Source: an uncultured Gammaproteobacteria bacterium (lineage in GTDB: Bacteria > Patescibacteriota > Microgenomatia > UBA8517). From it: DNA of 43,054 nt. Below the pieces are notes generated by a model. That model was given only the letters and a program-made list of their open reading frames with translations, had not been told where the DNA came from and did no database searches. Below are positions 1 to 38,472 of the stretch, in pieces (position 1 is the first letter of the stretch; every line of letters begins with the position of its first letter). The position numbers and the translations under genes are program-made. The stretch spans positions 1-43,054 of the forward strand of contig CAZOVJ010000002.1 of assembly GCA_964583685.1 (NCBI GenBank). The letters are read 5' to 3'.

Positions 1-21
1 TATCCTTTTAGGACAAACAAG

Positions 22-714
22 TTAGATTCTGTTCCTGTGCATTTCTGAAAGCTGATTAGACGAAACTTTTTCATCTATAGTTGCAAGGAAAAAACCTATT
101 CCTAGTGTACCTTCAGTTACGATTTGTCGCCACCTTTCTCTTAAGGTTCTTTTCGAAGTAAAAACAATGCAATCTAGGGGGTTTTCGTTCCAATGCTCAA
201 GGGAAGGCATAAGAAAGTCGGGTTTCCCATTTATCACCTTCTGTTCATCAAATTTGTAGTCAAGCAGTTTAAAAAGAGAATTATGTATGTTTTCAAAAGA
301 TTTACCGGCTCGGGCTTTCCTCGATTGACTCAAAGATAGAAAAAACTTATCAAAGACGTTAAAATATACGCCTAAGATATTTCCCATACTAGAAAGCTCG
401 GAAATTTCATTATTTTCAATTAAGTAGGCAGTGAAGGCTTTAAAAACCTTTGTCCCGTACTCTTTTTCCGACTCAAGATATATTCTGTAGGCTTCTTTCT
501 CTGTTTCCTCTAGGAGATTATCAAAATTTTCTTTTACCTGCTCAACTGTATAATTATATTTACGAGCGATATTATCACGAGCTTCGTCCGCAATTTCTTT
601 TTGAGGTTTAAGAACTATTTCTCTTTCTTTGGCAAATTGCTTCAAATCTTGAACTGCAGGCATATGTAAAAACATTATAACAAAACTGATAAAATAATGT
701 TGCCGCGATGACAA
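22..714 (-). CDS. PD-(D/E)XK type II restriction endonuclease-like protein (EcoRII-C/SsoII/PspGI-like core). True start is more likely an internal Met near 672 or 660
   Basis: 230-aa ORF. The motifs SRKARAGKSFEN, KPDFLMP and FTSKRTLRERWRQIVTEG resemble, from memory, the SRxGxxFE / PDF / KxTxK(D/E)RWRQ core of EcoRII-C-type nucleases. No methyltransferase is visible in the window. Confidence 0.5.
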   Translation of the reverse strand: MSSRQHYFISFVIMFLHMPAVQDLKQFAKEREIVLKPQKEIADEARDNIARKYNYTVEQVKENFDNLLEETEKEAYRIYLESEKEYGTKVFKAFTAYLIENNEISELSSMGNILGVYFNVFDKFFLSLSQSRKARAGKSFENIHNSLFKLLDYKFDEQKVINGKPDFLMPSLEHWNENPLDCIVFTSKRTLRERWRQIVTEGTLGIGFFLATIDEKVSSNQLSEMHRNRI

Positions 715-1394
715 GACAAAACAAAATTAACTATCGGAGTCCGCTTGCCCAAAATCTATTTTTGCTCAGCCAAAACAAGAATTTCATCCAAGATCTTAAA
801 ACGATCAAGAGAGAACATCAAAAAGAGTTAGCTGCTCTCAAAAAGAATCGACAAATTCCATTTTTAATCGGGGGGGAAACCGGAAGCAAAAAACTACAAC
901 GCGATATTGAGTGCATCATTAGAAAATCTCCTCTTTACCCAACCCCTAAGATGAAAATTCTGAGATCGTTCGCCGTTTTCCTCCTGGTTGGAAACGACAC
1001 CCAACCGATATTGAAAGGCATCGAAGAAGACAAAGAGATAAATATGCTTATCCCACCTATCCCGGTAAAAATAATACCGGAAGAAAACAATATCACCATC
1101 ACTCTTTCATTTACTCCCTATCACACAAAAACGGACGCGAAAAAAGCGATTGACAAAAATTGGTTTCGGGTGGACAAGGTAACAGAAAAATATAAAGCAA
1201 AAACAACTCTTAAAATAAAGAAGCCGCAACCGATTACAGATTTCGAGAGAGATTGGAAAATATATCAAGGTAAAACAGTTAAAAAACAAACCTACAAGGA
1301 TCTCGCAGACAATTTCGGCGAAACATTTGTAAATGTGGTAGAAATCGTAAAGCAAATTCGGAAAAGAATATCCTCCCTATACCCTTCAAAATAA
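708..1394 (+). CDS. Hypothetical protein, Lys-rich, possible C-terminal helix-turn-helix
   Basis: 228-aa ORF divergent from the nuclease-like gene and followed by a hairpin terminator. The C-terminal segment KQTYKDLADNFGETFVNVVEIVKQIRKRI looks HTH-like. No family recognised. Confidence 0.45.
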   Translation: MTRQNKINYRSPLAQNLFLLSQNKNFIQDLKTIKREHQKELAALKKNRQIPFLIGGETGSKKLQRDIECIIRKSPLYPTPKMKILRSFAVFLLVGNDTQPILKGIEEDKEINMLIPPIPVKIIPEENNITITLSFTPYHTKTDAKKAIDKNWFRVDKVTEKYKAKTTLKIKKPQPITDFERDWKIYQGKTVKKQTYKDLADNFGETFVNVVEIVKQIRKRISSLYPSK

Positions 1395-1422
1395 CTAACT
1401 TAAATTGGTAGACCTTTTTTGT

Positions 1423-1454
1423 AAAAAAGCCCTTTAAAGACAGGGGCTTTTTTT
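1423..1454. terminator. Rho-independent-type hairpin (A-tract / GCCC ... GGGC / T-tract), potentially bidirectional
   Basis: The sequence aaaaaagccc-tttaaagacag-gggcttttttt lies directly after the stop at 1394. Confidence 0.5.
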
Positions 1455-1586
1455 CTTGCTGTAATCGGATTGTGACAAAACAAGACAATACGACCAAAAA
1501 GGTAAAGGTTGAAAATAAACCAATTACCGACGATTTAGTCAGATTTTTTGCCACGCTTATAAAAATCGACAAAAGGAGACAAAAAT

Positions 1587-1829
1587 ATGGATACATACAA
1601 AACAAAAGACATCTTTGAAGCCGCTTGGATCTACTCACAAGAAATTTCTCTACTCAGACTTGACCCGGACGAGAAATACTCCTGGTTTGTTTTTGCCGAC
1701 AAGGAACGCTGTGAAGCTCTATCTAATGATTATTGGGGCCGTAAGGCAGTCGGAAATATCAAACAGTTTGTCAGTAGTCTAAAAAGTTTAAAAGACTTGG
1801 TATTTTCAAAGAATCGAAATAAGTCGTGA
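1587..1829 (+). CDS. DUF5659-like small protein
   Basis: 80 aa with an aaggag RBS upstream. The pattern DIFEAAWIYSQ...LLRLD...KYSWFVF...EALSNDYW...VGNIKQFVSSLKSLKDLV matches my recollection of the DUF5659 fold common in CPR phage/mobile DNA. Confidence 0.5.
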   Translation: MDTYKTKDIFEAAWIYSQEISLLRLDPDEKYSWFVFADKERCEALSNDYWGRKAVGNIKQFVSSLKSLKDLVFSKNRNKS

Positions 1830-2016
1830 GGGTTCTGACCGTTACAGGCGATCAAGCGACATTAAATAAGTTGACGAAGACTAACGGCGACCGACCAAAG
1901 CGATCGACACCTATACAGATTTAACCGTTAAGACACCTCAGGCGACCGCCTAGGAGAAAATCTGGAAGGGAGAGAGAGCAGAAGGAGGGAGGAGTTCTAG
2001 GGAGAAAGGAAAAAAT

Positions 2017-2211
2017 ATGAAGAATCGACAAATCGACCAAAAAACGACAAAACAGATCCGAATAGACGCAGGCCTACATAAGATACTAAAGACTTATGCC
2101 GCAGAGTCCGAAATGAGCATTAAGGCGCTTCTAGAAGATTATTTATCAGACTTATTAGCAATCGATAAAAACAAAACCTACATTCCAGAGAAAAAAGGCG
2201 GTAAAAAATGA
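2017..2211 (+). CDS. Ribbon-helix-helix (Arc/CopG-like) DNA-binding protein
   Basis: 64 aa. The segment QIRIDAGLHKILKTYAAESEMSIKALLEDYLSDLL has a beta-strand then two-helix RHH pattern. It is preceded by a purine-rich SD-like tract. Confidence 0.5.
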   Translation: MKNRQIDQKTTKQIRIDAGLHKILKTYAAESEMSIKALLEDYLSDLLAIDKNKTYIPEKKGGKK

Positions 2212-2212
2212 T

Positions 2213-2317
2213 TTACGAAGACTTTTTGCGCTTAAGGCTAAAAATGGCAAGAAAATGGCAAGAAAAGGGTGGGGAAAATATGTTACGAAGGTTTTTGTCA
2301 CTCAAGGCTAAAAATGG
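2213..2317. repeat. Iteron-like repeats: a 35-nt imperfect direct repeat (2213-2247 and 2283-2317, 29/35 identical) plus an 11-bp tandem AAAATGGCAAG x2 (2241-2262) with a degenerate third copy
   Basis: Read directly. The core AAGGCTAAAAATGG is identical in both copies, and the copies sit 70 bp apart. Confidence 0.7.
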
Positions 2318-2363
2318 GTGTTTAAACGGTGTAAGAACGTGGGAAATTGACCAAAAAGTTTTT

Positions 2364-2393
2364 TTGAAAAATATGTCCAAAGTAGGTTATAAT
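2364..2393 (+). promoter_or_regulatory. Sigma-70-like promoter TTGAAA-18 nt-TATAAT
   Basis: TTGAAA at 2364-2369 and TATAAT at 2388-2393. The predicted start is about 2400, immediately before the 13-bp inverted repeat. Confidence 0.35.
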
Positions 2394-2403
2394 CATCATA
2401 GAA

Positions 2404-2482
2404 ATCAACAGCGACGGGATACTATCCAGTATCGAGCCCAAAAAGGGGCTACCTTCATAGGGCTTGATACGTCGCTGTTGAT
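2404..2482 (+). repeat. Perfect 13-bp inverted repeat (ATCAACAGCGACG / CGTCGCTGTTGAT) enclosing two small hairpins. Either a structured RNA or a DNA recognition site
   Basis: Arms at 2404-2416 and 2470-2482. Inner hairpins are gatact-atcc-agtatc and agccc-aaaaag-gggct. A second gggct at about 2459-2464 could pair alternatively. Confidence 0.6.
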
Positions 2483-2550
2483 AGTACCGGGGGTAGTCCC
2501 TTTTTGTTGACTAAACACCCCCGAAGCTGAAAGGGGGTGAGAAAGACAAT

Positions 2551-2940
2551 ATGAAGAAAAAAGTAATCATTATCGCAATCGTTGCCCTACTCGGGATCGT
2601 TCTTATAGCTAATTCCGGAAAAGAAGAAAACCAATCAACCGGAATCTCGACTTCACCGACGGCTATCCAGGTTCAAGAGAAAAACAGATTTACTGTCTTA
2701 AGCGGAATAGAGAGAGATCCGCAATCAGATGCTTATAGTGAGTTAGTCGTTCCGGAAATCAATATCTGGGAAGACGCCGGGCCGGATAGAGGCAAAACAG
2801 TAGGAACAATTTCTCACGATACCAAAGTGAAAATCTTGGAAGAAAAGACAACCGATCAACTCTACTACCGGGTTGAATCACCCGACGGTTTAACTGGTTG
2901 GGTTTCCGAGTTGTTTGCGACGGAGGTGATCGAAGAGTGA
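2551..2940 (+). CDS. Secreted or membrane-anchored SH3b-domain protein
   Basis: N-terminal hydrophobic signal/anchor MKKKVIIIAIVALLGIVLIA. The C-terminal segment GTISHDTKVKILEEKTTDQLYYRVESPDGLTGWVSELF is bacterial SH3-like. Confidence 0.55.
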   Translation: MKKKVIIIAIVALLGIVLIANSGKEENQSTGISTSPTAIQVQEKNRFTVLSGIERDPQSDAYSELVVPEINIWEDAGPDRGKTVGTISHDTKVKILEEKTTDQLYYRVESPDGLTGWVSELFATEVIEE

Positions 2941-4514
2941 AAAAATATATTGCCTACTACCGAAAATCGACTGATGTCGAAGACAAACAAGTCCTTTCTT
3001 TGGGGGATCAGGCTCGAGTTGTTCGGGAATTTTCTAAGTCAAAGGATCTATATGTTCCGAGGAAGTTAGAATTTGAAGAAAGCTATTCGGCCAAAGCTCC
3101 GGGAAGACCGGTTTTTGATAAAGTTGTTAGTCTTTTGCGTCAAAAAAAAGCCCAAGGAATTATCTCATATAAGGCAGATCGATTAACCAGAAACTATACA
3201 GACCTCGGAACCTTAGTCCAGCTTTTAGAAAATGAGATTGAAATTTGGACGACTGGTTTTGGTCAATACAAAAATGATGCTAACGGAATGATGTTTCTTG
3301 GCATCAATACCGTGATGGCTAAAAGGAAAATTGATGACCTTTCCGAAGATACGAAAAGAGGAATGGAAGGAAGAACAAAAAATGGCTGGTGGGCCGGACA
3401 GGCTAGGCTTGGCTACTTGAATGTCGACAAATATGGCAGAATTGTTCCTAAACAATACACGGCAGAAAAACAAAAACTTTTAGACCGACTTAAAAGATCT
3501 CTTTATCCAATAGAAAAAGATCCTCTAGTTGCTCCTTTTATCAAAAAAGCCTACGAGCTTTATTACTATCAGGACTATAGTCTTAAAACCTTAAGCGCCA
3601 TGCTTTACAAAGAAGGACTAAGGAGTAGATGTGGAAATAAAGTGGTAAAAACCTCGCTTTCTCAAATGCTTAAAAACCCTTTTTATTATGGAGTGAGCCT
3701 TTGGAAAAAAGAAATTAGAGACGATGCAAAACATCAACCGATTATTTCAAAAGAGCTTTATGATTTAGTTCAAGAGAAACTTTCCGGCAAATCGCCCTTC
3801 CAACCTCAACCTCAAAAGTTAGATTTTCTTTACCGAGGATTACTCTTTTGCGGGGAGTGCGGATGCTCAATTACTGCTGAAAGGCACACCAAAAAGATGA
3901 AGAACGGCAATGTCCACCGCTATATCTATTATCGTTGCACAAAAACAAAAGGGAATTGTAATCAGAGCTATATTAGTGAGGACAAACTTGAATTAGAACT
4001 CGGTAAAATCTTTAAAAACTTCATTCTTTCCAAAAAACGGGCTAATGCTATCCAATGCAAGCTCCGAGAGCTTTTCCAAGATGATCTAAGATACCAAGAC
4101 ACTCAGGAAAAAACCCTTAAAGATCGCTTAGAAGCCTTAAAAGAGGAAAAGAAAAAGATCTATCGTAAAATGGCTACCGACAAACTGCCAGACCAAGACA
4201 CTTACCTTGAGGTTAACAACGATATTCAAAATGAAATCGTCAATCTTCAGGAGAAGCTATCTAACATCGGCAGGCATTCTAAAGAGTGGCTAGAGCATTC
4301 TTCGAACCTTATCTACCTAGCTAAAAACGCTGATAAATTATTCTTAGAGGGAACAAAAGAGGAAAAACACACTTTGATAAACTGCGCGGCTTCGAACCTT
4401 TTTTTGAAAGACAGAAAAGTCTCTTTTAGCCTCAAAAAACCCTTCGCTATACTCGCTGAAAGTCAAAAAAGTACGACCTTGCTCCCCCGGTGGGATTCGA
4501 ACAATATATTATAA
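2937..4514 (+). CDS. Large serine recombinase (resolvase catalytic domain, recombinase domain, zinc ribbon, coiled coil)
   Basis: YYRKST catalytic-Ser motif near the N-terminus. Zinc ribbon CGECGCS...YYRCTK...GNC, followed by a coiled-coil region. The likely GTG start at 2937 overlaps the upstream TGA (GTGA). The ORF track starts it at 2898. Confidence 0.9.
   Translation: MKKYIAYYRKSTDVEDKQVLSLGDQARVVREFSKSKDLYVPRKLEFEESYSAKAPGRPVFDKVVSLLRQKKAQGIISYKADRLTRNYTDLGTLVQLLENEIEIWTTGFGQYKNDANGMMFLGINTVMAKRKIDDLSEDTKRGMEGRTKNGWWAGQARLGYLNVDKYGRIVPKQYTAEKQKLLDRLKRSLYPIEKDPLVAPFIKKAYELYYYQDYSLKTLSAMLYKEGLRSRCGNKVVKTSLSQMLKNPFYYGVSLWKKEIRDDAKHQPIISKELYDLVQEKLSGKSPFQPQPQKLDFLYRGLLFCGECGCSITAERHTKKMKNGNVHRYIYYRCTKTKGNCNQSYISEDKLELELGKIFKNFILSKKRANAIQCKLRELFQDDLRYQDTQEKTLKDRLEALKEEKKKIYRKMATDKLPDQDTYLEVNNDIQNEIVNLQEKLSNIGRHSKEWLEHSSNLIYLAKNADKLFLEGTKEEKHTLINCAASNLFLKDRKVSFSLKKPFAILAESQKSTTLLPRWDSNNIL
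4480..4502 (-). other. tRNA 3'-end fragment (T-loop to acceptor 3' strand), a candidate att remnant
   Basis: The minus strand reads GTTCGAATCCCACCGGGGGAGCA, which is a T-loop TTCGAAT, a 5-nt stem half, a 7-nt acceptor half and a discriminator. No matching 5' stem halves lie upstream. The fragment sits inside the last codons of the recombinase ORF. Confidence 0.4.
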
Positions 4515-4580
4515 ATAAATGAATTAAAGTTGACTTTTGGCCTAGATTTTGGTTAAATTCAGCAAGCAAGTAATTTAAAG

Positions 4581-4604
4581 ACTGCCTTAATCGGCAGTTT
4601 TTTT
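4581..4604 (+). terminator. Rho-independent terminator after the recombinase gene
   Basis: actgcc-ttaatc-ggcagt followed by a T-run. Confidence 0.6.
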
Positions 4605-4657
4605 ACAAATTAAGAATACTGCTCATAACCTCTGCCCTGTATTAAGGAGGTGAGGGT

Positions 4658-4984
4658 ATGAGAACAATCTTATTATTTAAATCGCTTCTTATCACTGCCT
4701 TGATTACTGCTTCCAGCGTATATGCCCAGTCCGACGATATTGCCAAGGTGGAAAACTTCATGCAAAACATAATTCAAACTTTGCTTACGCTTGCCGGGAT
4801 TTTGGCGGCACTTTTTTTTGTCTGGGGCGGGGTAGGCTATATCACAAGCTCGGGAAATCCGGAAAACCTTGAAAAGTCAAAAAAGACAATATTTTATTCG
4901 GGACTCGGTTTGGCAATAAGCATGGGAGCATACGTGTTAAGCAATATTGTAGTACAGCTTGCCCAAGGCGCATTTGGCAGATGA
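4658..4984 (+). CDS. TrbC/VirB2-like T4SS pilin
   Basis: Strong RBS aaggaggtga. Signal peptide ending VYAQ, then two hydrophobic helices around GYITSSGNPENLEKSKKTI, giving a typical VirB2 architecture. Confidence 0.7.
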   Translation: MRTILLFKSLLITALITASSVYAQSDDIAKVENFMQNIIQTLLTLAGILAALFFVWGGVGYITSSGNPENLEKSKKTIFYSGLGLAISMGAYVLSNIVVQLAQGAFGR

Positions 4985-6279
4985 TAAAGACAATTTTATC
5001 GATATTGGGAAGCATTATACTTTTCTTTGCCTTGGCCACGCCATCCTTCGCCCAAACCCCAAATCCCCAGGTAGAAGCTTTTTCTTCCGAAGTCTTAAGC
5101 GTAATAACTGTAATAGCTTTGATTTTTTCTGTTTTTGTTCTTATCAAAGGAGGCTATCTTTACATAACCTCGACCGGCAGACCCGAAGCCCTTGAAAACG
5201 CCAAAAGAACGATCAAGCATGCTTTAATGGGACTGATCCTTGTTCTTTCGGCAAGTGTATTTGCTTCTCTTTTATCCCATGCCTTTACAACGCCAAACAT
5301 CCCGGCGCTTGAAAGCCAAATTGTGCTTCAGCCAATTGAGCCCGAAACACCCAGCGACGGCTTGACCCAAATCCTTTTGGAAGCGGTTGCCGGATTTTTG
5401 CAAAGCATAATCCAGAGCGCAACCAAACCGATAACCGATGCAATCATTAGTTTTCTGACGACAACCCCTCTTGTTTCCACCAACTCGGTCATTTTCAACT
5501 TCTGGCTTGTCATCTTAGGAATAGCCGACGCCCTGTTTGTCGTAGTTATCGCCCTTTTGGGTCTTCAGTTTATGAGCACCTCAGCCTTCGGTTTTGAAGA
5601 ACTTGACTTGAAACACGTTCTGCCAAGATTGGGCCTTGCCTTTCTTGGAGCCAACGTATCCATTTATTTTATTGACTGGATAATAAGGGCAAGCAACGTC
5701 CTGGTGAATGCCGTTTTGTCTTCAACGGGTGGGATAAACGACGCCTGGATTTTAAATGCCTTTGACCCGGTCAATTTATCGATAGCCGGCGTAACCACAA
5801 TAACCCTTATTTTTATGGTGTTATTTATTATTCTTGCCACCGTCCTTTTGCTTTTTTATATCTCGAGGCTTATCATAATAGCCTTCGGCGCGGTAGTGGC
5901 TCCTTTGATTTTTCTTTTGTGGGCAATCCCTAAATTTTCCGACTTTGCCGAAATATCAAGTAAGGCCTATTTAACCGTCGTCTTTTCCGTCTTTGTCCAC
6001 GTTGTTATTATTCAGCTTGCCTCGGCATTTTTGTCCACAGGTAGCGGAACAGGTTCAACAACTATAATTCCCATCCTTGTCGGGATCGGTCTTTTTGTAA
6101 CCCTTTTGAAAGCTCAAGGCCTGATGATCCAGTTTACCTTCTACAACACGGGGAGGGCGGCTGTTAAAAAATTCGGTGGCCAAGTAATAAATGTCTTGAC
6201 CGCAAGACAAACTGAAAGCACAACCGAAACCGCCAAAAAATCGGCCGTTAAAAAGGCCAGAAAGGTGATTAGAGCATGA
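4981..6279 (+). CDS. VirB6/TrbL-like polytopic membrane protein with an N-terminal VirB2-like pilin module
   Basis: ATGA overlap with the upstream gene. Residues 1-105 are paralogous to the preceding pilin (YITSTGRPEALENAKRTI versus YITSSGNPENLEKSKKTI). The remainder has at least 5 TM helices and a basic C-terminal tail. Confidence 0.65.
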   Translation: MIKTILSILGSIILFFALATPSFAQTPNPQVEAFSSEVLSVITVIALIFSVFVLIKGGYLYITSTGRPEALENAKRTIKHALMGLILVLSASVFASLLSHAFTTPNIPALESQIVLQPIEPETPSDGLTQILLEAVAGFLQSIIQSATKPITDAIISFLTTTPLVSTNSVIFNFWLVILGIADALFVVVIALLGLQFMSTSAFGFEELDLKHVLPRLGLAFLGANVSIYFIDWIIRASNVLVNAVLSSTGGINDAWILNAFDPVNLSIAGVTTITLIFMVLFIILATVLLLFYISRLIIIAFGAVVAPLIFLLWAIPKFSDFAEISSKAYLTVVFSVFVHVVIIQLASAFLSTGSGTGSTTIIPILVGIGLFVTLLKAQGLMIQFTFYNTGRAAVKKFGGQVINVLTARQTESTTETAKKSAVKKARKVIRA

Positions 6280-6770
6280 AGACAACCGTTATACCGGCGC
6301 AAATTACAACCGTCGAGGACAAAATTGCTGGTAACTTAAATTTAACCCAGATAATTCTTCTACTCTCCTCCCTTTTTGTCGGAACCTTCGTCTACACGGT
6401 TCTGCCGAACAAAATGCAGTTCACCGCCTACAAAATACCTCTTATCATTTTTGAGTTTGCCTTGTTTGCCGGCTTATCTATAAGAATAAAGGGGAGAATT
6501 GTACTTCAGTGGCTGATTGTCCTTATTAGATACTGGATGCGCCCCAGAATTTACATTTTCAACAAAAATGAATTGTATTTAAGAAAAGTTGAAAGCCGCA
6601 ATAAAAAATCAGATAAAAGCGCGCTTAGCTTTTCCAAACAAAAAACAAAAGCCAAAAAGGAAAGCAAAAACACGCTTTCGGAAATACTGACACTTCTTTC
6701 AGATAAACAAAAAAAGTTTGGTTTTAAATTAGGTAAGAAGGGAAAATTGAATTTGGCTGTTTATGATTAG
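6276..6770 (+). CDS. PrgI/VirB3-like small membrane protein
   Basis: ATGA overlap with the upstream gene. The N-terminal EDKIAGNLNLTQIILLL segment is followed by two TM helices and RYWMRP, which is PrgI-family-like. Confidence 0.55.
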   Translation: MKTTVIPAQITTVEDKIAGNLNLTQIILLLSSLFVGTFVYTVLPNKMQFTAYKIPLIIFEFALFAGLSIRIKGRIVLQWLIVLIRYWMRPRIYIFNKNELYLRKVESRNKKSDKSALSFSKQKTKAKKESKNTLSEILTLLSDKQKKFGFKLGKKGKLNLAVYD

Positions 6771-7356
6771 AAAACATTCGTCAAGAAGACAAATAGACAT
6801 TAAAGAGGTAAGAGACGGGGTTCTCATTTTGCCGGGAGGAAAATACAGAACCTTACTTGAGGCCTCCTCGGTCAACTTTGAACTTAAAAGCGACGAGGAG
6901 CAGGATGTTTTGATTGATAACTTCCAGAATTTCCTAAACTCCCTTCCTTATCCCATCCAGATTCTGATAAGAATAAGGGAAATAGACATCGACGATTATC
7001 TTAATAAGTTATCGGAAAAAGGCAAAAGCGAAAAAGAAAAGGTTTATATCAAACAAATCAAAAACTACTCCAAGTTTGTCAAAAAGCTCGTTTCGGGAAA
7101 TAAGATTCTCTCCAGACGCTTTTATGTTGTTATCCCCTACGAGTCCGAAGACGGAAAAGGCGAGTTCAGTCTGGTAAGGGAGCAGATAAAACTCAATCAA
7201 GACATTGTGGTAAAGGGGCTTGAAAGACTGGGTATGAAGACAAAACACCTTGATTCAATCGACGTTCTGGAGCTTTTTTACAGTTTTTATAATCCGGCCC
7301 AAAGCAAAACCCAGCAGCTTAAGGAAAAGACCTTTGAATTTTTAACAAATGTTTAA
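6763..7356 (+). CDS. VirB4/PrgJ-family ATPase, N-terminal domain as a separate ORF
   Basis: QIDIKEVRDGVLILPGGKYRTLLEASSVNFELKSDEEQDVLIDNFQNFLNSLPYPIQILIR matches the N-terminal region of Gram-positive VirB4 homologues. The ORF overlaps its neighbours by 8 nt on each side. Confidence 0.6.
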   Translation: MIRKHSSRRQIDIKEVRDGVLILPGGKYRTLLEASSVNFELKSDEEQDVLIDNFQNFLNSLPYPIQILIRIREIDIDDYLNKLSEKGKSEKEKVYIKQIKNYSKFVKKLVSGNKILSRRFYVVIPYESEDGKGEFSLVREQIKLNQDIVVKGLERLGMKTKHLDSIDVLELFYSFYNPAQSKTQQLKEKTFEFLTNV

Positions 7357-9151
7357 CGGAAAGCTAAATTTTAAAAGAATTAAAAAAGTACTCGTTAGCA
7401 AGACAAACGGCGGGAAAAACGGTCCTTTTAAGAGGGTTCGGAAGTTTGAATTTGGAGAGCAGGATTTGATCGACCTTATCTCCTACTCGGGCATTAAAGA
7501 ACGTCCCAACTACATAAGGATGGGTAATAAGTACATACGAACGCTTTTTATCTCGGGCTATCCTTATGTAGCTTCAACCGGGTGGCTTAATATGCTTATC
7601 AACTTTAACCACAACGTCGATATTTCCTACCATATAGAACAAATTGACCCTCTTTTAGCCCTTCCCAAACTAAACAGGAAAATAACCGAGCTTGAGTCAA
7701 CCAGGCGCAGTATGCAACAGCAGGGCAAGATAATAGGTTCTGAACTCACCGACCCTTTAAAGTCGGCTGTAGAACTTAAGGAGGCTATTTTAAGGGGCCA
7801 GGAGAAGCTTTTCCAGATATCAATTTACATAGCCGCGATTGCAGATACTCTCATTGAGCTTGACAAGATAACCACTCTTTTAGAAACGACACTGGCTACA
7901 AAACTTTTTTATACAAAAACGGCCAGCTTTCAGCAACTTGAAGGCCTTCAGTCGGTCCTCCCGAGAGGAGAAAACCTGCTTTCGCAAAAAAGAAACCTTG
8001 ACAGCTCATCTGCCTCTTTGACTTTTCCTTTCATTTCAAGCGAGTTTGTCCAGGAGTCCGGAATTCTCTACGGGATTAACAAGTCAAATAACTCCCTTGT
8101 CATGATTGACAGATTTTCCCTGAACAACGCAAACAGCATTACCTTTGCCCAATCGGGAAGTGGCAAAAGCTACGCCGCAAAGGTGGAAATTCTAAGACAG
8201 CTCATGCAAAAGACAAAAGTAATCGTCATTGACCCGGAAAGAGAATACAAGCAGCTGACCGATTCTTTGAAAGGAACCTACATCAAGCTTTCGGCAAGGT
8301 CCAAAGAAAAGATAAACCCCTTTGATTTTTCTGTCGGCTTCCATGGAGACGGAAATCTGGCGGAACACATCCAGGACTTAACCGAGATAATCTTCCTGAT
8401 GGTCGATGGTTTAACGGCCCAGGAAAAAGCCGTAATTGATAAAGCAATTATTGCAACCTACAAAAAACACGGCTGGTCGATAAAAGGTAAAAACACCCGT
8501 AGCAAAGGAAAAACCTTCCCTCTTTTAAAAGACCTTTATAAAAATCTTCGTTCGACAAGGCACAAAAAGCTTTACACCAGAATGGAGAAATTCATCAAAG
8601 GCTCGCTGTCAAGCGTTTTTGACAGCCCGACAAACATCAAGCTTGACAACCGGCTGGTTGTTTTTGACATCAAAGACCTGCCCGAATCAATCAGACAGAT
8701 AATGATGGTAATTATTGCCAATTATGTCTATAACCAGGTTAAAAAAGAACCCCAAAAAAGGCTTCTTGTAATTGACGAGGCCTGGATGCTTTTGGAGCAC
8801 GAAGAAAGCGCAAGGTTTATTGCCGGCCTGACAAGAAGAGCAAGAAAATATTACCTGGGAGTAAGCATCATTTCACAACAGGCCAACGACTTTTTAAACA
8901 ACGAATACGGAAAAGCCATTGCCTCCCAAGCATCACTTAGGCTTTTAATGCGCCAAGATACGACAACCATTAATGAAGTAGTCGAGCAGTTTAAGTTAAG
9001 TGAATACGAGCATAAATATCTTTTGACCTGCGACAAGGGAGAGGCTTTGATTATCGCCGATTCAAACCACGTTGCTTTGAAAATAGTTGCGTCCAAAAAA
9101 GAGCACCCACTGATAACTACTCACCCTGCCGAAATATATCCAACCCCATGA
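7349..9151 (+). CDS. virB4: VirB4/TraC/PrgJ-family T4SS ATPase (central and ATPase domains)
   Basis: Walker A SGSGKSY and Walker B LLVIDEAW. The RTLFISGYP...GWL motif is typical of the VirB4 middle domain. Confidence 0.85.
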   Translation: MFNGKLNFKRIKKVLVSKTNGGKNGPFKRVRKFEFGEQDLIDLISYSGIKERPNYIRMGNKYIRTLFISGYPYVASTGWLNMLINFNHNVDISYHIEQIDPLLALPKLNRKITELESTRRSMQQQGKIIGSELTDPLKSAVELKEAILRGQEKLFQISIYIAAIADTLIELDKITTLLETTLATKLFYTKTASFQQLEGLQSVLPRGENLLSQKRNLDSSSASLTFPFISSEFVQESGILYGINKSNNSLVMIDRFSLNNANSITFAQSGSGKSYAAKVEILRQLMQKTKVIVIDPEREYKQLTDSLKGTYIKLSARSKEKINPFDFSVGFHGDGNLAEHIQDLTEIIFLMVDGLTAQEKAVIDKAIIATYKKHGWSIKGKNTRSKGKTFPLLKDLYKNLRSTRHKKLYTRMEKFIKGSLSSVFDSPTNIKLDNRLVVFDIKDLPESIRQIMMVIIANYVYNQVKKEPQKRLLVIDEAWMLLEHEESARFIAGLTRRARKYYLGVSIISQQANDFLNNEYGKAIASQASLRLLMRQDTTTINEVVEQFKLSEYEHKYLLTCDKGEALIIADSNHVALKIVASKKEHPLITTHPAEIYPTP

Positions 9152-9759
9152 CCCCCCAGCTTCTCCTTGCACTTTTTTCTTTCAGAAAAGAAATAACTTA
9201 CGTATTGACAGCCTTTTTGCTGGTCATACTTTTGCCAATAATCGCCGTAATTGTCATAACCAGAGTCGGAATTGATGTGGTATCGGACAGGCTGGTTGAG
9301 TATGATAGCGTTACCGGATCGGTTTTAATTAAAAATCCAAAAGACGGTTCTGTTTATAAGGAAATAAAAGGAACCTTTGTTTGGCCGGTTAAAGGAGTAA
9401 TTACTTTAGAATTCGGTGAATCAAGCATTTTCCAGCCATTTCATACCGGGATTGATATAGCAAACCCAGAAGGTAAAAAAGGGGATCCGATTACTCCGTT
9501 TATGCCAGGCAAGGTTATCTATGCTGGACGGATTTTCTGGGGATTCGGCAAACATGTAATAGTCGACCATGGAGATAACCTGACCTCAATTTATGCGCAT
9601 CTGGATACAATAAATGTCGAAAAGGGCCAAGACGTTAAGCCTGGAAACGTAATCGGAACAGAAGGCCGTACAGGTTGGGCAACAGGACCCCATCTTCACT
9701 TTCAAATAAATGTCTTTGGAATACCCGTAAACCCGAGGGTGTTCTTAGGAAGTTCCTGA
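9148..9759 (+). CDS. Membrane-anchored M23/LytM peptidase (candidate T4SS cell-wall hydrolase)
   Basis: An N-terminal TM helix, then the HTGIDIA and HLHFQI zinc-ligand motifs. Confidence 0.85.
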   Translation: MTPQLLLALFSFRKEITYVLTAFLLVILLPIIAVIVITRVGIDVVSDRLVEYDSVTGSVLIKNPKDGSVYKEIKGTFVWPVKGVITLEFGESSIFQPFHTGIDIANPEGKKGDPITPFMPGKVIYAGRIFWGFGKHVIVDHGDNLTSIYAHLDTINVEKGQDVKPGNVIGTEGRTGWATGPHLHFQINVFGIPVNPRVFLGSS

Positions 9760-10091
9760 CAAAGTTTACCATAACTCCCAAACCAGCCTTAGCTAATATA
9801 ATGTCATCGGAGATTTTTTCCATTATGAAAAGGTTATTAATTGGTTAATTTCGCAGACTCTGGGCATCTTGTTAGGGTTTTTCGGACTATTAGCAACTGG
9901 TTATGTTAATGAGCTTTTTACTAAAAGAGCCGAAGATAGAAAAGCAAAGAGGGATTTACTTGAAGAGTTTGGGGACATTCTTATAGAAGCCGAAAAAGTG
10001 GTTGGCGCACCACCAAGGCTTAGGTGTTGGGGATGGCGAAGACGAAGACGTTGAGGTAGATCAATTACACCTTGAAGGTATGAAATAATAA

Positions 10092-10394
10092 TCAATAGGT
10101 TGGTTCAACCGGGCCATCTTTAACAATATTTCTTCCGTTAACCGGCACCTTGAGCACCCAACCAAGAGTGTTGGCAACTGAAACACCAACTCGAAGACCG
10201 GTAAAAGAACCAGGCCCCCTATTAACTTCTATTTCCGAAATCTCCTCTATTTTCATTCCTTGCTTTTTCAACAGCTCATCAATAAAAGAAAGCAGCTTTT
10301 GAGATTTTTCCTCCCTGGCGTCGGTTTTAAATCTTTCTTCATCAATGCCAACAATTACTTTCTCAGAATTAGAGGTGTCGATATATAATTTCAT
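10092..10394 (-). CDS. tsaB: TsaB-like protein, N-terminal half only
   Basis: IDTS...NRGPGSFTGLRVGVSVANTLG is the YeaZ/TsaB N-terminal subdomain. The ORF is 100 aa, against roughly 200-230 aa in the versions I recall. Confidence 0.7.
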   Translation of the reverse strand: MKLYIDTSNSEKVIVGIDEERFKTDAREEKSQKLLSFIDELLKKQGMKIEEISEIEVNRGPGSFTGLRVGVSVANTLGWVLKVPVNGRNIVKDGPVEPTY

Positions 10395-10399
10395 ATTAT

Positions 10400-11383
10400 T
10401 TAGTCCTGGTATCCCCTAGGATGTTTTTTGTGCCATTTATGAGCTGTTTCTATAATCTCCTTTAATCCATATTTCGGCTCCCAACCCAAATCTTTAGTGA
10501 TTTTATCTATTGAAGCATAAAGGGTATCTGCATCGCCTGGTCTTCGAGGACCGATTTTGATTTTAAAATCGCGACCACTAATCTCTTTAATTAATTGAAC
10601 TACCTCTTTATTAGAGTAGCCCTTACCTGCTCCGGCATTATAAAAATCAGAACTTGCACCCTTAATTAATGCCTCAAGTGCCAAAGTATGCGAACTAGCT
10701 AAATCCAAAACATGAACATAATCCCTGACACAAGTCCCATCAGGAGTTTGATAATCATCTCCAAAAAGGGTAAATTCTTTATCTTCAAGGGCTGCTTTCA
10801 TGGCCAAAGGAATGAGATGGCTCTCATGAGGATGGTCTTCGCCAATGGAACCGTCCAGGGCCGCACCGGCAGCATTAAAATATCTGATACTGATAAATTT
10901 AAGGTCATGGGCCTTATCAGACCAAGAAAGTATTTTTTCAATCATCAATTTTGTTTCTCCATAAGGATTGAGTGGATTCTTGGGAGCATTTTCTTTAATT
11001 GGAAACCTGTGAGGATTACCATAAACCCCGGCTGAAGAAGAGAAGACCATCCTCAAAACCCTATATTTAAGCATTACTTGCAATAAATTTAGAGTTCCAA
11101 CCAGATTATTCTCAAAATATTTAAGAGGCTTTTGAAAAGATTCTCCCATTTGAATAAAACTGGCCATATGGATAACTCCCCCAAACTTCTCTTTTTCAAA
11201 AACTTTCTCTAATTTATCTTTGTCTCTCACCAAATCGAGTTTGAGAAGTTTAAATCCTTTAACTGCTTCTTTATGACCTTGAGATAAATTGTCAACAATA
11301 ACTGGCTTAAATCCATCCCTTCTCAACTGCCTAACAATAAAACTACCAATGTATCCAGCTCCGCCGGTAACAAGAATTTTCAT
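10400..11383 (-). CDS. galE: UDP-glucose 4-epimerase
   Basis: GGAGYIGS Rossmann motif and YGETK (YxxxK). Full-length similarity to GalE. Confidence 0.85.
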   Translation of the reverse strand: MKILVTGGAGYIGSFIVRQLRRDGFKPVIVDNLSQGHKEAVKGFKLLKLDLVRDKDKLEKVFEKEKFGGVIHMASFIQMGESFQKPLKYFENNLVGTLNLLQVMLKYRVLRMVFSSSAGVYGNPHRFPIKENAPKNPLNPYGETKLMIEKILSWSDKAHDLKFISIRYFNAAGAALDGSIGEDHPHESHLIPLAMKAALEDKEFTLFGDDYQTPDGTCVRDYVHVLDLASSHTLALEALIKGASSDFYNAGAGKGYSNKEVVQLIKEISGRDFKIKIGPRRPGDADTLYASIDKITKDLGWEPKYGLKEIIETAHKWHKKHPRGYQD

Positions 11384-24340: not shown

Positions 24341-24981
24341 ACAAAAAAAATATTGGCCTCCGGAGTAATCGCTTTCACCCGAGGAAAAAATTTCTCCAAT
24401 TTCTCTCCAAATCTCGCTGATTGAGGCCTTTTCTCTCCATAATAAAGCCTGTTAAAAACAGCTACTCCTCCTTTGTTTAAAAGGCTGGACACCAACTGCA
24501 AAAATCTTTTTTGTTCAAATTTCTCGGGCATTCTATCGCCAACATAGATACCAATTAAGATAAGGTCGTAGTCAGTCAACAGTGAAGAGTGAACAGTACA
24601 AAATTCAAAGGCATCTTGAATAATTATTTCTGTTTTTGTCTTGTCTAAACCCAAATACTTTTTTCCTAACTTAATCATAATCGGGTCAATTTCCACTCCA
24701 GTAATCTGCGCCTCTGGCCAAAATTTACGAACCAGCTTGGCCGCACTTCCGCCACCCAGACCAAGAATTAAACAAGTTTTGACATTTGGGATTTGCTTTT
24801 TGAGTTTTTTCAACGTGCTTTTCCAAACATCCCTAACCACCCCCCCAGACTGGGTCGTCCCATCAGCCTTCAGATAAATCCCCCAAGCAAGATCCCGTAT
24901 AACCGTCAATTTGCCATTAATAGGCGACTCAACCTCGGCTAAAACCTTTCTGCCTCCTAGTAAATCTCCTGCCCTATTCAT
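24328..24981 (-). CDS. Spermidine synthase-like SAM-dependent methyltransferase-fold protein
   Basis: LILGLGGGS glycine-rich loop, VEIDPIMI and DLILIGIY motifs. Confidence 0.65.
   Translation of the reverse strand: MNRAGDLLGGRKVLAEVESPINGKLTVIRDLAWGIYLKADGTTQSGGVVRDVWKSTLKKLKKQIPNVKTCLILGLGGGSAAKLVRKFWPEAQITGVEIDPIMIKLGKKYLGLDKTKTEIIIQDAFEFCTVHSSLLTDYDLILIGIYVGDRMPEKFEQKRFLQLVSSLLNKGGVAVFNRLYYGEKRPQSARFGEKLEKFFPRVKAITPEANIFFVCSK
24578..24598. repeat. Three heptads AACAGTG AAGAGTG AACAGTA, related to the tsaE tract
   Basis: Read directly. They encode CTVHSSLLT on the minus strand, compared with STVHRSLFT in TsaE. Confidence 0.7.
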
Positions 24982-38471: not shown

Positions 38472-38472
38472 A

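What the first reader, a model, noticed from the sequence alone, without database searches (positions are those of the whole stretch)
4658..9759. Minimal, translationally coupled T4SS-like operon without relaxase or coupling protein in view
Seven ORFs on one strand overlap each other by 4 or 8 nt. They are a VirB2-like pilin, a pilin-VirB6 fusion, a PrgI/VirB3-like protein, VirB4 in two pieces, and a membrane-anchored M23 peptidase in the position of the cell-wall hydrolase of Gram-positive-type systems. No VirD4/TcpA-type coupling ATPase, relaxase, VirB8/VirB10-type scaffold or surface adhesin is present in the 10 kb around it. The operon follows a serine recombinase and a tRNA fragment, and it precedes a half-length tsaB. 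This could be a stripped-down conjugation apparatus on an integrated element. It could also be a DNA/protein exchange or attachment device in an episymbiotic CPR-type cell. T4SS-like genes have been noted in Saccharibacteria, but their function is poorly defined.
Basis: partly seen in the sequence, partly recalled or inferred. Interest (0 to 1): 0.7.

Follow-up and report, generated by a model that had tools for sequence, protein, structure and literature searches.

The report
Patescibacterial type IV secretion gene cassette
This is a real, intact six-gene type IV secretion (pilus plus ATPase) operon of the kind already described as nearly universal in the ultra-small CPR/Patescibacteria bacteria, so it is a good example of a known system and not a new one.

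Summary
There are six (not seven) + strand ORFs at 4658-9759, overlapping by 4, 4, 8, 8 and 4 nt. They are a VirB2-like pilin, a pilin-domain/VirB6-like fusion, PrgI/VirB3, a TrsD-like protein (the VirB4 N-domain as a separate gene), a VirB4 ATPase and a membrane-anchored M23 peptidase. No coupling protein or relaxase lies in the 43-kb window or in 4.3 kb further left.

The same six genes in the same order occur in essentially all 80 related loci fetched from Microgenomates-type CPR genomes. They are under strong purifying selection (dN/dS 0.05-0.13). This is the "Patescibacteria-clade" T4SS already published (Wang 2023; Quinonero-Coronel 2025). That system has pilin arrays, TrsD and PrgI, usually no relaxase, and is essential for epibiotic growth in a Saccharibacterium.

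- The 100-aa tsaB is the normal length in this lineage.
- The tRNA-like fragment belongs to the end of a separate serine-recombinase element that abuts the cassette at about 4505-4523.

In relatives the flanks are highly variable. About 12-15% carry a T4CP + MOBC (Replic_Relax) relaxase module next to the cassette, so a conjugative role is not excluded.

Verdict: a new member of a known kind, of moderate-low interest.

The parts
4524..4657 (+). Conserved upstream leader of the cassette. It holds a sigma-70-like site (TTGACT-18-TAAATT, 4530-4559), a strong hairpin followed by T7 (about 4577-4605), and the RBS AAGGAGG before the pilin ATG.
   Evidence: 87% DNA identity with the closest relative (GCA_018823885.1) starts at 4524 and not before. 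The hairpin folds at -14.5 kcal/mol, z = -4.95. The promoter match is consensus-level only; such matches are no more frequent here than in shuffles.
4658..4984 (+). VirB2/TrbC-like T4SS pilin, 108 aa: Sec-type signal peptide (..SVYA/QS) plus two hydrophobic helices.
   Evidence: PF04956 40.7 bits and PF18895 40.6 bits, above cut-offs. NCBIfam Mbov_0395 pilin-like 34.5 bits, below its cut-off of 40. Present in 63 of the related loci.
4981..6279 (+). Fusion protein, 432 aa: signal peptide, VirB2-like pilin domain (about 25-104), low-confidence linker (about 105-127), and a polytopic VirB6/TrbL-like domain (about 128-413).
   Evidence: T4SS_pilin 38.5 bits. The pilin domain is 32% identical to ORF1, E = 1e-14. 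Homologues P0030, P0033 and P0039 (56-60% identity, full length) hit TrbL_4 PF19597 above the cut-off over residues about 125-406. The AF2 model has pLDDT 72.8. The top Foldseek PDB hits are chains of the R388 TrwJ/VirB5-TrwI/VirB6 stalk, but weakly: E = 0.024-0.45, TM 0.37-0.43. Present in 73 related loci.
6276..6770 (+). PrgI/VirB3-like small membrane protein, 164 aa, with two N-terminal hydrophobic segments and a basic C-terminal tail.
   Evidence: PF12666 PrgI 28.5 bits vs cut-off 27. Hydropathy. The 4-nt overlap with ORF2 is conserved in 70 of 73 loci.
6763..7356 (+). TrsD-like protein, 197 aa: the N-terminal domain of VirB4 encoded as a separate gene.
   Evidence: NCBIfam CD1110 VirB4 model positions 11-177 (E = 3e-10), Mbov_0397 VirB4 positions 126-285 (E = 6e-12), TrsD/TraD E = 2e-4. 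It is a separate ORF in 79 of 81 loci. dN/dS = 0.067.
7349..9151 (+). VirB4-type T4SS ATPase, 600 aa, with Walker A (GSGKS) and Walker B (LLVIDEAW).
   Evidence: NCBIfam conju_CD1110 356 bits (cut-off 325), model positions 185-734. Pfam P-loop_TraG and AAA_10. 220 relatives in genome contigs, the best 80 at 66-78% identity. The best plasmid hit is 36% identical.
9148..9759 (+). Membrane-anchored M23 (LytM-type) peptidoglycan metallo-endopeptidase, 203 aa. The HxxxD (HTGID) and HxH (HLH) motifs are intact.
   Evidence: PF01551 100.6 bits. N-terminal hydrophobic segment at 14-50. Follows VirB4 in 77 of the related loci.
2898..4514 (+). NEIGHBOUR, not part of the cassette: a large serine recombinase (called as 525 aa in the public annotation) at the right-hand end of a separate element lying to the left.
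   Evidence: Resolvase + Recombinase + Zn_ribbon_recom. Absent from the closest relative's locus. Only 23-30% identical to the recombinases seen in other loci.
4472..4505 (-). NEIGHBOUR: a tRNA-like 3' fragment (T-loop, T-stem 3' half, acceptor 3' strand) that overlaps the last codons of the recombinase gene. Inferred to be an att-site remnant of the recombinase element.
   Evidence: Read directly from the sequence. It is unique in the window and not called by ARAGORN or Rfam. Four distantly related (23-30% identical) recombinases of the same BLAST cluster, in L003, L011, L024 and L082, overlap complete tRNA genes in the same geometry.

Best explanation
The block at 4524-9759 is a stand-alone chromosomal copy of the Patescibacteria-type (MPF-FATA-related, monoderm) type IV secretion system, in a Microgenomates/Woesebacteria-like CPR bacterium.

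Proposed working (homology and conservation are shown; the steps are inferred from characterised T4SSs):
1. One translationally coupled transcript yields fixed ratios of six proteins.
2. The 108-aa VirB2-like pilin is Sec-exported and stored in the membrane.
3. The VirB6-like polytopic protein forms the membrane platform or stalk base. Its own N-terminal pilin domain may prime or cap pilin polymerisation, since no VirB5 is present.
4. PrgI/VirB3 and the TrsD-like domain dock the VirB4 ATPase at the membrane. VirB4 powers pilin extraction, assembly and substrate passage.
5. The membrane-tethered M23 endopeptidase opens the peptidoglycan locally.
6. The result is a pilus or channel used at the contact with a host or partner cell.

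The substrate is unknown. This copy does not itself transfer an element, because it has no adjacent coupling protein, relaxase or att-bounded element. The serine recombinase and tRNA-like fragment to its left belong to a different mobile element that merely abuts it.
For: - All six components have profile support.
- The six-gene order, the split VirB4 and the gene overlaps are conserved in about 80 related loci from Levy-, Davies-, Woese-, Roizman-, Shapiro- and Gottesman-bacteria, WWE3 and others.
- dN/dS is 0.05-0.13 against the closest relative.
- ATPase and peptidase catalytic motifs are intact.
- The host is CPR: the named SecA relatives among the best hits (71-76% identical; the single best, 81%, is unnamed) are Woesebacteria, Microgenomates or Patescibacteria.
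- No T4CP, relaxase, Replic_Relax, DUF2958 or PLD homologue occurs in the window or in 4.3 kb to its left.
- 31 of 40 relatives with at least 6 kb on both sides also lack a T4CP nearby.
- Literature: this system is present in 2417 of 3035 Patescibacteria genomes. TrsD is its commonest component, pilin arrays are common, and relaxases are rare (PMC12102498). The Southlakia T4SS cluster, including its pilins, is essential for epibiotic growth and lacks recognisable T4CP and relaxase (PMC10633639; PMC12857230).
- The left boundary at 4524 is defined by the sister locus.
- tsaB is not truncated.
Against: - No experiment exists for any Microgenomates member. The function is extrapolated from one Saccharibacterium.
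- In relatives of this particular VirB4, the flanks look like mobile-element cargo: R-M systems, metal resistance, recombinases.
- 11-12 of 80 relatives have a T4CP + MOBC-type relaxase next to the cassette.
- One contig carries two cassettes.
- The closest cassette (87% DNA identity) sits in an unrelated context.
- That same NCBI genome appears to have no SecA closer than about 76%.
- Together these points favour mobility or a conjugative role. The rest of the source genome could not be searched for a T4CP or relaxase acting in trans.
- The VirB6 call for the window protein itself rests on homologues and a weak fold match.
Confidence: 0.6

Rival explanations
1. The cassette is the mating-pore (MPF) module of a conjugative system. 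Either it is the remnant core of an ICE whose T4CP/relaxase module has been lost or replaced, or it is a resident pore exploited in trans by integrative mobilisable elements that carry a T4CP, a MOBC (Replic_Relax) relaxase and a serine recombinase.
For: - In 11 of 80 related loci (9 of 40 with full flanks) an 866-aa T4CP (TrwB_AAD_bind, TraG-D_C) lies next to the cassette.
- In 10 of those 11 loci it is paired with a Replic_Relax protein. Twelve loci in all carry a member of that protein cluster, and 11 of the 12 members hit PF13814, best E = 1.5e-15. PF13814 is the MOBC relaxase superfamily (PMC5357655).
- DUF2958 accompanies the module in 6 loci, and a serine recombinase accompanies T4CP + Replic_Relax in 5. 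Four recombinases of that cluster have a 3' end overlapping a tRNA gene.
- The flanks are cargo-rich and unrelated even between close relatives.
- Two cassettes lie on one contig.
- The closest characterised relatives of VirB4 are conjugative-element ATPases.
Against: - The window and 4.3 kb beyond it have no T4CP, relaxase or DUF2958.
- Most relatives lack them too.
- A decaying ICE would not keep all six genes at dN/dS of about 0.1 with conserved coupling.
- Phylum-wide, relaxases occur in only 103 of 3035 genomes, against VirB4 in 2417 (PMC12102498).
- In Southlakia the T4SS is essential while the T4CP is not (as cited in PMC12102498).
- The T4CP module sits on either side of the cassette and in either orientation, as an independent unit would.
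Confidence: 0.25
2. It is a DNA uptake or release machine, by analogy with archaeal Ced/Ted, Helicobacter ComB or the gonococcal GGI. It would supply nucleotides or DNA to a cell that cannot make them.
For: - Weak VirB4 similarity to CedB and CedD (42 and 29 bits).
- A PLD-family (Nuc-like) nuclease gene recurs downstream of the cassette in 50 of 80 relatives.
- CPR cells lack nucleotide synthesis (PMC12102498 introduction).
Against: - The CedB and CedD scores are far below the family cut-offs of 700 and 600.
- The window copy has no PLD nuclease.
- In Southlakia, competence depends on ComEC and T4P, and a comEC deletion abolishes competence without affecting viability, so DNA import is not the essential function (PMC12857230).
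Confidence: 0.07
3. It is a non-functional leftover: the split VirB4 would be a frameshifted pseudogene and the operon would be decaying.
For: VirB4 is in two ORFs. There is no VirB8-like scaffold, T4CP or relaxase nearby.
Against: - The split is conserved in 79 of 81 loci, with the same 8-nt overlap in 40.
- The N-terminal piece is a recognised separate family, TrsD (PMC12102498).
- dN/dS is 0.047-0.128.
- The catalytic motifs are intact.
Confidence: 0.03

Closest known systems
Patescibacteria-clade T4SS (Quinonero-Coronel et al. 2025, PMC12102498); prototype cluster SEML1_0006-0019 of Ca. Southlakia epibionticum ML1 (Wang et al. 2023, PMC10633639)
   Same: MPF-FATA-type VirB4, a separate TrsD-like gene directly upstream, PrgI/VirB3, VirB2-like pilins inside the cluster, VirB6, a peptidase downstream of virB4 in place of a classical VirB1, no relaxase or T4CP next to it, a CPR host, chromosomal location.
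   Different: - Only two pilin-domain genes here, against six in Southlakia.
- The second pilin domain is fused to the VirB6-like protein. The 2025 survey reports VirB6 as 'scarce' in Microgenomatia.
- No lysozyme partner is seen next to the M23.
- The cassette is not near dnaA/dnaN within this window.
- No experimental data exist for this lineage.
pGO1/pSK41 Trs system of Staphylococcus (MPF-FATA subclass with TrsC-TrsD-TrsE-TrsG)
   Same: It is the only characterised subclass in which the VirB4 N-domain homologue (TrsD) is a separate gene before the VirB4 ATPase (TrsE), preceded by a VirB3-like TrsC. The system is monoderm.
   Different: pGO1 has a relaxase (Nes), a T4CP (TrsK), a VirB1-like TrsG with SLT/CHAP domains and no VirB2-like pilin. 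The TrsD model hit here is weak (21 bits).
Mycoplasma ICE proteins (Mbov_0395 pilin-like, Mbov_0397 VirB4) and the Clostridioides CD1110-family VirB4 of CTn-type ICEs
   Same: These are the best NCBIfam models for the pilin domains (34.5 and 26.3 bits) and for VirB4 (356 and 282 bits). They come from wall-less or monoderm hosts.
   Different: Those are parts of self-transmissible ICEs with a T4CP plus a relaxase or DDE transposase. Identity to real Bacillota proteins is only about 30-36%. The pilin scores are below the equivalog cut-off.
Unnamed cluster on the Pontibacillus sp. ALD_SL1 megaplasmid NZ_CP062975.1 (356 kb region)
   Same: It has the best VirB4 hit in the plasmid collection (36%). 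The gene order is the same: Mbov_0395-type pilin-like, hypothetical, 779-aa protein, 116-aa, 274-aa, VirB4 (CD1110 family), M23 DD-metalloendopeptidase. No annotated T4CP or relaxase lies within 9 kb.
   Different: The host is a Bacillota and the M23 protein is much larger (1050 aa). The middle genes were not compared by profile here, and the function is unknown.
TrwI/VirB6 of the R388 T4SS stalk (PDB 7O3V, 8RT9, 8RTD)
   Same: The five best Foldseek PDB matches to the ORF2 model are chains of this complex (probability up to 0.99). Homologues of ORF2 hit Pfam TrbL_4.
   Different: The match is weak (E = 0.024 at best, TM 0.37-0.43, 10-16% identity). R388 VirB6 has no fused pilin domain and works with VirB5, which is absent here.

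Membership tests
Patescibacteria-clade (MPF-FATA-related) T4SS | VirB4 ATPase of the MPF-FATA/CD1110 type with an intact P-loop | tested here: met
   NCBIfam conju_CD1110 356 bits, above the 325 cut-off. Walker A and B motifs are read from the translation.
Patescibacteria-clade (MPF-FATA-related) T4SS | Separate TrsD-like (VirB4 N-domain) gene adjacent to virB4 | tested here: met
   ORF 6763-7356 matches VirB4 model positions 11-177 and TrsD. It is a separate gene in 79 of 81 loci.
Patescibacteria-clade (MPF-FATA-related) T4SS | PrgI/VirB3-like membrane protein | tested here: met
   PF12666 28.5 bits vs gathering score 27, so only just above threshold. The position is conserved in 77 loci.
Patescibacteria-clade (MPF-FATA-related) T4SS | VirB2-like pilin gene(s) within the cluster | tested here: met
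   PF04956 and PF18895 above cut-offs for ORF1, and PF18895 for the ORF2 N-terminus. The two pilin domains are paralogous, E = 1e-14.
Patescibacteria-clade (MPF-FATA-related) T4SS | VirB6/TrbL-like polytopic membrane protein | tested here: met
   The window protein has no direct Pfam hit. Full-length homologues at 56-60% identity hit TrbL_4 above the cut-off. The top Foldseek hits are R388 VirB5/VirB6 stalk chains, weakly.
Patescibacteria-clade (MPF-FATA-related) T4SS | Host is a Patescibacterium and VirB4 falls in the monophyletic Patescibacteria clade | tested here: inconclusive
   Host: the named SecA relatives among the best hits (71-76% identical) are Woesebacteria, Microgenomates or Patescibacteria. 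All correctly labelled relatives of VirB4 are CPR MAGs, and the best plasmid homologue is 36% identical. No tree with reference MPF classes was built.
Patescibacteria-clade (MPF-FATA-related) T4SS | Required for epibiotic growth or host interaction | not testable with these tools
   Shown only for Southlakia epibionticum by Tn-seq (PMC10633639).
Self-transmissible integrative conjugative element (ICE) | Type IV coupling protein (VirD4/TcpA type) | tested here: not met
   No Pfam hit in any ORF of at least 100 aa in the window or in L001's left extension. tblastn with the relatives' T4CPs gives nothing below E = 0.1. The rest of the genome was not searchable.
Self-transmissible integrative conjugative element (ICE) | Relaxase | tested here: not met
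   No relaxase family hit. There is no homologue of the Replic_Relax/MOBC proteins found in relatives.
Self-transmissible integrative conjugative element (ICE) | Integrase or recombinase at one end, and att repeats bounding the element that contains the T4SS genes | tested here: not met
   - A serine recombinase is adjacent, but its att-like tRNA fragment lies between it and the cassette.
- The sister cassette lacks the recombinase.
- No repeat of the fragment exists in the window or in L001.
- tsaB on the right is full length for the lineage.
Classical Gram-positive conjugative T4SS (pCF10/pIP501 type) | VirB8-like scaffold (PrgL/TraM), SLT/CHAP VirB1-like hydrolase, surface adhesin (PrgB) | tested here: not met
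   None is detected by Pfam or NCBIfam in or around the operon. The hydrolase is M23-only. A very divergent VirB8-like fold cannot be excluded by sequence.
Archaeal Ced/Ted DNA-import systems | CedB/CedD-type ATPase with CedA-type membrane proteins | tested here: not met
   CedB 42 bits (cut-off 700) and CedD 29 bits (cut-off 600). No CedA-like gene is present.

The most novel reading that the evidence does not exclude
In this Microgenomates sub-lineage the six-gene cassette may be a horizontally exchanged, self-contained pore-and-pilus module. Its VirB6 would carry a built-in pilin domain that nucleates a VirB2-type pilus in a monoderm, replacing VirB5. The module would double as the mating bridge for small serine-recombinase elements that bring only a T4CP, a MOBC (Replic_Relax) relaxase and DUF2958. 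On this reading the 'relaxase-less' CPR T4SS is truly conjugative in trans as well as host-directed.
Probability: 0.2. Interest if true: 0.6.

Novelty: new member of a known kind. Interest (0 to 1): 0.3.

Why it matters
The T4SS of Patescibacteria is one of the few envelope machines known to be essential for the epibiotic lifestyle of this very large uncultured radiation, and its substrate is unknown. This window adds a clean, minimal Microgenomates example. It has two pilin domains, one of them fused to the VirB6-like platform, and that fusion explains why VirB6 looked 'scarce' in that class.

The comparison with 80 relatives shows three things about this sub-lineage:
- The cassette sits in variable, cargo-rich surroundings.
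- It is sometimes duplicated.
- In about 12-15% of cases it lies next to T4CP + MOBC relaxase + serine-recombinase modules.

That keeps open the question of whether the system is purely host-directed or also conjugative, and it points to concrete loci where the question can be tested. The finding itself, however, is an instance of an already published system.

Tried and rejected
- I looked for DNA further left than L001 by an exact-pattern scan of metagenome contigs with L001's end sequence. There was no match.
- I searched for direct repeats of the tRNA-like fragment, or of the tRNA 3' ends next to recombinases in L003, L011 and L024, to define element ends. None were found. This is expected if serine recombinases with 2-bp crossovers are involved, so it is uninformative.
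- An Rfam scan of 4300-10500 gave only two chance-level hits.
- A PDB sequence-profile search with the ORF2 family alignment gave nothing meaningful.
- The listing of cluster members on housekeeping proteins, to name the organism, returned no named members. The SecA homologue search was used instead.
- I tried to recover the SecA of the sister genome (GCA_018823885.1) through P0283, but that protein belongs to another MAG. The 'cassette more similar than SecA' argument therefore stays suggestive only.
- I looked for strain variants lacking the block through exact look-ups of tsaB and M23. All contigs show the same arrangement.
- I rejected the idea that tsaB was cut by an insertion and the idea that VirB4 is a frameshifted pseudogene.
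- GC content shows no compositional island at 4.6-9.8 kb.

Full report
OBSERVATION. The region 4658-9759 holds six + strand ORFs: 4658-4984, 4981-6279, 6276-6770, 6763-7356, 7349-9151 and 9148-9759. Successive ORFs overlap by 4, 4, 8, 8 and 4 nt. The only other ORF nearby is a 61-aa TTG ORF at 9869-10054, which does not overlap and has no counterpart in any related locus.

Profile searches support every component call:
- ORF1 is a TrbC/VirB2 and T4SS_pilin protein, above the Pfam cut-offs.
- ORF2 has an N-terminal T4SS_pilin domain (38.5 bits).
- ORF3 is PrgI, only just above the cut-off (28.5 vs 27).
- ORF4 matches the N-terminal 170 positions of VirB4 models and the TrsD family.
- ORF5 is a CD1110-family VirB4 (356 bits, above the equivalog cut-off) covering model positions 185-734. 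Its Walker A and B motifs are intact.
- ORF6 is a membrane-anchored M23 peptidase (100.6 bits) with intact HxxxD and HxH motifs.

THE VirB6 CALL. ORF2's polytopic C-terminal two-thirds has no Pfam hit of its own. Full-length homologues 56-60% identical to it hit TrbL_4 (PF19597, 'conjugal transfer protein TrbL') above the gathering score over residues about 125-406. An AlphaFold2 model built on 76 homologues (pLDDT 72.8) gives chains of the R388 TrwJ/VirB5-TrwI/VirB6 stalk as its five best PDB matches. The match is weak: best E = 0.024, probability 0.99, TM 0.37-0.43. The pilin domain of ORF2 is a paralogue of ORF1 (32% identity, E = 1e-14). I accept 'pilin-VirB6 fusion' as supported.

NOT CHANCE, NOT DECAY.
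- A scan of one-genome-per-species bacterial contigs found 220 relatives of the VirB4 piece.
- In the best 80 (66-78% identical), the same six genes occur in the same order in essentially every locus long enough to show them.
- VirB4 is split into the same two ORFs in 79 of 81 loci.
- The B6/PrgI 4-nt overlap is kept in 70 of 73 loci, and the TrsD/VirB4 8-nt overlap in 40 of 79.
- Against the closest relative (GCA_018823885.1, 87% DNA identity), dN/dS is 0.047-0.128 for the five genes that can be compared.
- The arrangement in the window is reproduced in assemblies from six independent samples.

SURROUNDINGS IN THE WINDOW. Pfam scans of all ORFs of at least 100 aa show ordinary housekeeping genes to the right of the operon: tsaB, galE, tsaE, VanZ, C39 peptidase, FtsX/FtsE, RF2, SecA, SerRS, LysRS, GreA and others. 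To the left lie small hypothetical genes, an RHH protein, an SH3 protein and a large serine recombinase.

A public contig identical to the window (L001) extends 4.3 kb further left. It adds an EcoRII-C/Dcm/Vsr restriction-modification cassette, two hypothetical genes and a truncated gene with a weak nucleotidyltransferase signal. No T4CP, relaxase, VirB8/VirB10-type protein or adhesin was found. tblastn with the T4CP, Replic_Relax, DUF2958, PLD and XRE proteins of relatives found nothing. GC content is unremarkable across the block.

TWO CONTEXT CLUES THAT DO NOT HOLD.
1. The 100-aa TsaB is not a truncation. More than 100 homologues at 65-84% identity are all 100-139 aa (nearly all 100-117), and the 332 bp between M23 and tsaB contain no TsaB C-terminal remnant in any frame.
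2. The tRNA-like fragment (4472-4505, minus strand) overlaps the last codons of the recombinase gene. In L003, L011, L024 and L082, recombinases of the same BLAST cluster (only 23-30% identical to the window's) have their 3' ends overlapping complete tRNA-Glu, -Gly, -Arg and -Ala genes on the opposite strand. The geometry is the same. The fragment is therefore best read as the att-side end of a recombinase element that extends to the LEFT.
3. DNA homology with the sister cassette starts at 4524, ten bases after the recombinase stop, and nothing left of that is shared. So the cassette unit starts at about 4524.
4. Its leader contains a strong hairpin followed by T7 (-14.5 kcal/mol, z = -4.95) that is conserved in the sister.

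WHAT RELATIVES SHOW. The flanks are not conserved. They are rich in type I/II/III R-M genes, copper ATPases, multicopper oxidase, ArsR, BlaI/BlaR, Fic, reverse transcriptase and similar cargo. The following patterns recur:
- A 155-aa PLD-family nuclease on the opposite strand, 0.9-5 kb downstream of M23, in 50 of 80 loci. It is often preceded by an XRE regulator. The window lacks it.
- A module in 11 to 12 of 80 loci (9 of 40 with at least 6 kb on both sides), made up of an 866-aa T4CP (TrwB_AAD_bind, TraG-D_C), a 255-aa Replic_Relax protein (11 of 12 members hit PF13814, best E = 1.5e-15), and less regularly DUF2958 (6 loci) and a serine recombinase (with T4CP + Replic_Relax in 5 loci). PF13814 corresponds to the MOBC relaxase superfamily (PMC5357655). 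The module lies on either side of the cassette and in either orientation, so it behaves as an independent integrative element.
- One contig (CAJQIG010000001.1) carries two cassettes whose VirB4s are 92% identical.
- The sister cassette is 88-92% identical in protein. No SecA in the database is more than 81% identical to the window's, and none from an NCBI genome more than 76%. This suggests the cassette has moved, but the sister MAG may simply lack secA, so the point is only suggestive.

COMPARISON WITH WHAT IS KNOWN. The system is published.
- Wang et al. 2023 (PMC10633639) found an essential T4SS cluster with essential pilins and no recognisable T4CP or relaxase in Ca. Southlakia epibionticum.
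- Quinonero-Coronel et al. 2025 (PMC12102498) found VirB4 in 2417 of 3035 Patescibacteria genomes. Most fall in one clade nested in MPF-FATA. TrsD is the most abundant associated component, with PrgI/VirB3, VirB2 arrays and M23/lysozyme in place of VirB1. T4CPs are mostly far from virB4. Only 109 relaxases were found, MOBC being the commonest. VirB6 was 'scarce' in Microgenomatia, which they attributed to divergence.
- A 2025 review (PMC12857230) presents the system as the first T4SS essential for its bearer and as possibly pilus-forming.
- Outside CPR, the best VirB4 match in 72,556 plasmids is 36% identical (Pontibacillus megaplasmid). That locus has the same gene order, from an Mbov_0395-type pilin-like gene to an M23 peptidase.

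MECHANISM. Homology, conservation and absence of neighbours are shown. The steps are inferred by analogy with R388, pCF10 and pGO1.
1. A coupled operon gives fixed stoichiometry.
2. The pilin is Sec-exported and pooled in the membrane.
3. The VirB6-like platform, with its own pilin domain, forms the stalk base and possibly the first pilin layer. No VirB5 is present.
4. PrgI and TrsD anchor VirB4, which energises assembly and transport.
5. The tethered M23 opens the wall.
6. The substrate is unknown.

I rate the host-contact pilus or channel reading for this stand-alone copy at about 0.6. A conjugative pore, either an ICE remnant or a pore used in trans by T4CP/MOBC elements, gets about 0.25. 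DNA import or export gets about 0.07, and a dead remnant about 0.03.

VERDICT. It is a new member of an already described kind.

The small additions are these:
- The pilin-VirB6 fusion as the 'missing' VirB6 of Microgenomates.
- The precise left boundary of the cassette.
- The short TsaB.
- The enrichment of T4CP + MOBC + recombinase modules and PLD nucleases next to this sub-lineage's cassettes.

Interest: 0.3.

Noticed in passing
L001 2613-2659 and 4984-5030 (the latter = window 708-754); R-M genes at L001 2808-4951 (window 22-714 is the cut end of the EcoRII-C gene): An EcoRII-C / Dcm methylase / Vsr cassette is bracketed by a 47-nt direct repeat (89% identical). The repeat duplicates the first codons of the 228-aa ORF at window 708-1394. 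This looks like a discrete insertion of the R-M unit.
   Followed up: partly
window 10092-10394 (-): TsaB is only 100 aa, matching the N-terminal half of the 212-position TIGR03725 model. The same short form is found in more than 100 homologues at 65-84% identity, so it is a lineage-wide short TsaB and not a truncation.
   Followed up: yes
window 4577-4605 (+): A strong hairpin followed by T7 (-14.5 kcal/mol, z = -4.95) lies between a promoter-like site and the pilin start codon, and it is conserved in the sister genome. It may be an insulator or attenuator for the operon.
   Followed up: partly
L003-L082, e.g. L009:6473-6940(-) and L007:15460-15687(+): A 155-aa PLD-family (HKD, Nuc-like) nuclease gene on the opposite strand recurs 0.9-5 kb downstream of the M23 gene in 50 of 80 related loci. 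It is often accompanied by an XRE regulator and a 77-100-aa protein. Variable cargo lies between it and the cassette. The window has none of these.
   Followed up: partly
L003:601-6131, L011:928-6847, L024:95-5979, L077:14625-20637, L082:2818-6350 and others: An independent-looking integrative module sits beside the T4SS cassette in 10-12 of 80 relatives. It consists of a serine recombinase, a small protein, a T4CP (866 aa), a Replic_Relax (MOBC-type relaxase) and DUF2958. In four loci the 3' end of the recombinase overlaps a complete tRNA gene on the opposite strand.
   Followed up: partly
L051 and L069 (both on CAJQIG010000001.1); also L045/L059 and L007/L075: Two complete cassettes lie on one 378-kb contig (VirB4 92% identical), with different cargo on their flanks. 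Two other MAGs also carry two copies, at 83% and 68% identity.
   Followed up: partly
record titles of L004-L075: Many TPA MAGs that carry this CPR cassette are titled 'uncultured Gammaproteobacteria/Pseudomonadales', and one each 'Chitinophagales', 'Methylococcaceae', 'Nevskiaceae' and 'Micrarchaeota'. These are almost certainly taxonomic mislabels or mis-binned contigs.
   Followed up: no
L094 (NZ_CP062975.1 351801-361354): A Pontibacillus megaplasmid typed 'non-mobilizable' carries the same gene order: Mbov_0395 pilin-like ... VirB4 CD1110 family, then a 1050-aa M23 peptidase. No annotated T4CP or relaxase lies within 9 kb, and the cluster sits next to flagellar genes.
   Followed up: no
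window 36416-39165 and 41051-42319: An EF-Tu/eEF1A-like GTPase (430 aa) lies next to a PAPS-reductase-family protein, a pairing like CysN/CysD, together with two type I phosphodiesterase/nucleotide pyrophosphatase genes. This is an unexpected sulfate-activation-like set for a CPR genome.
   Followed up: no
window 1-10000 versus 10000-35000: GC skew and gene orientation change sign around 4-10 kb: + strand genes with positive skew on the left, - strand genes with negative skew on the right. The cassette and the recombinase element sit at this switch.
   Followed up: no
window 32034-34301 (+): A 755-aa ORF combines an MFS-transporter-like N-terminal part with a spermidine-synthase-like domain. 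A second spermine-synthase-like methyltransferase lies at 24328-24981.
   Followed up: no
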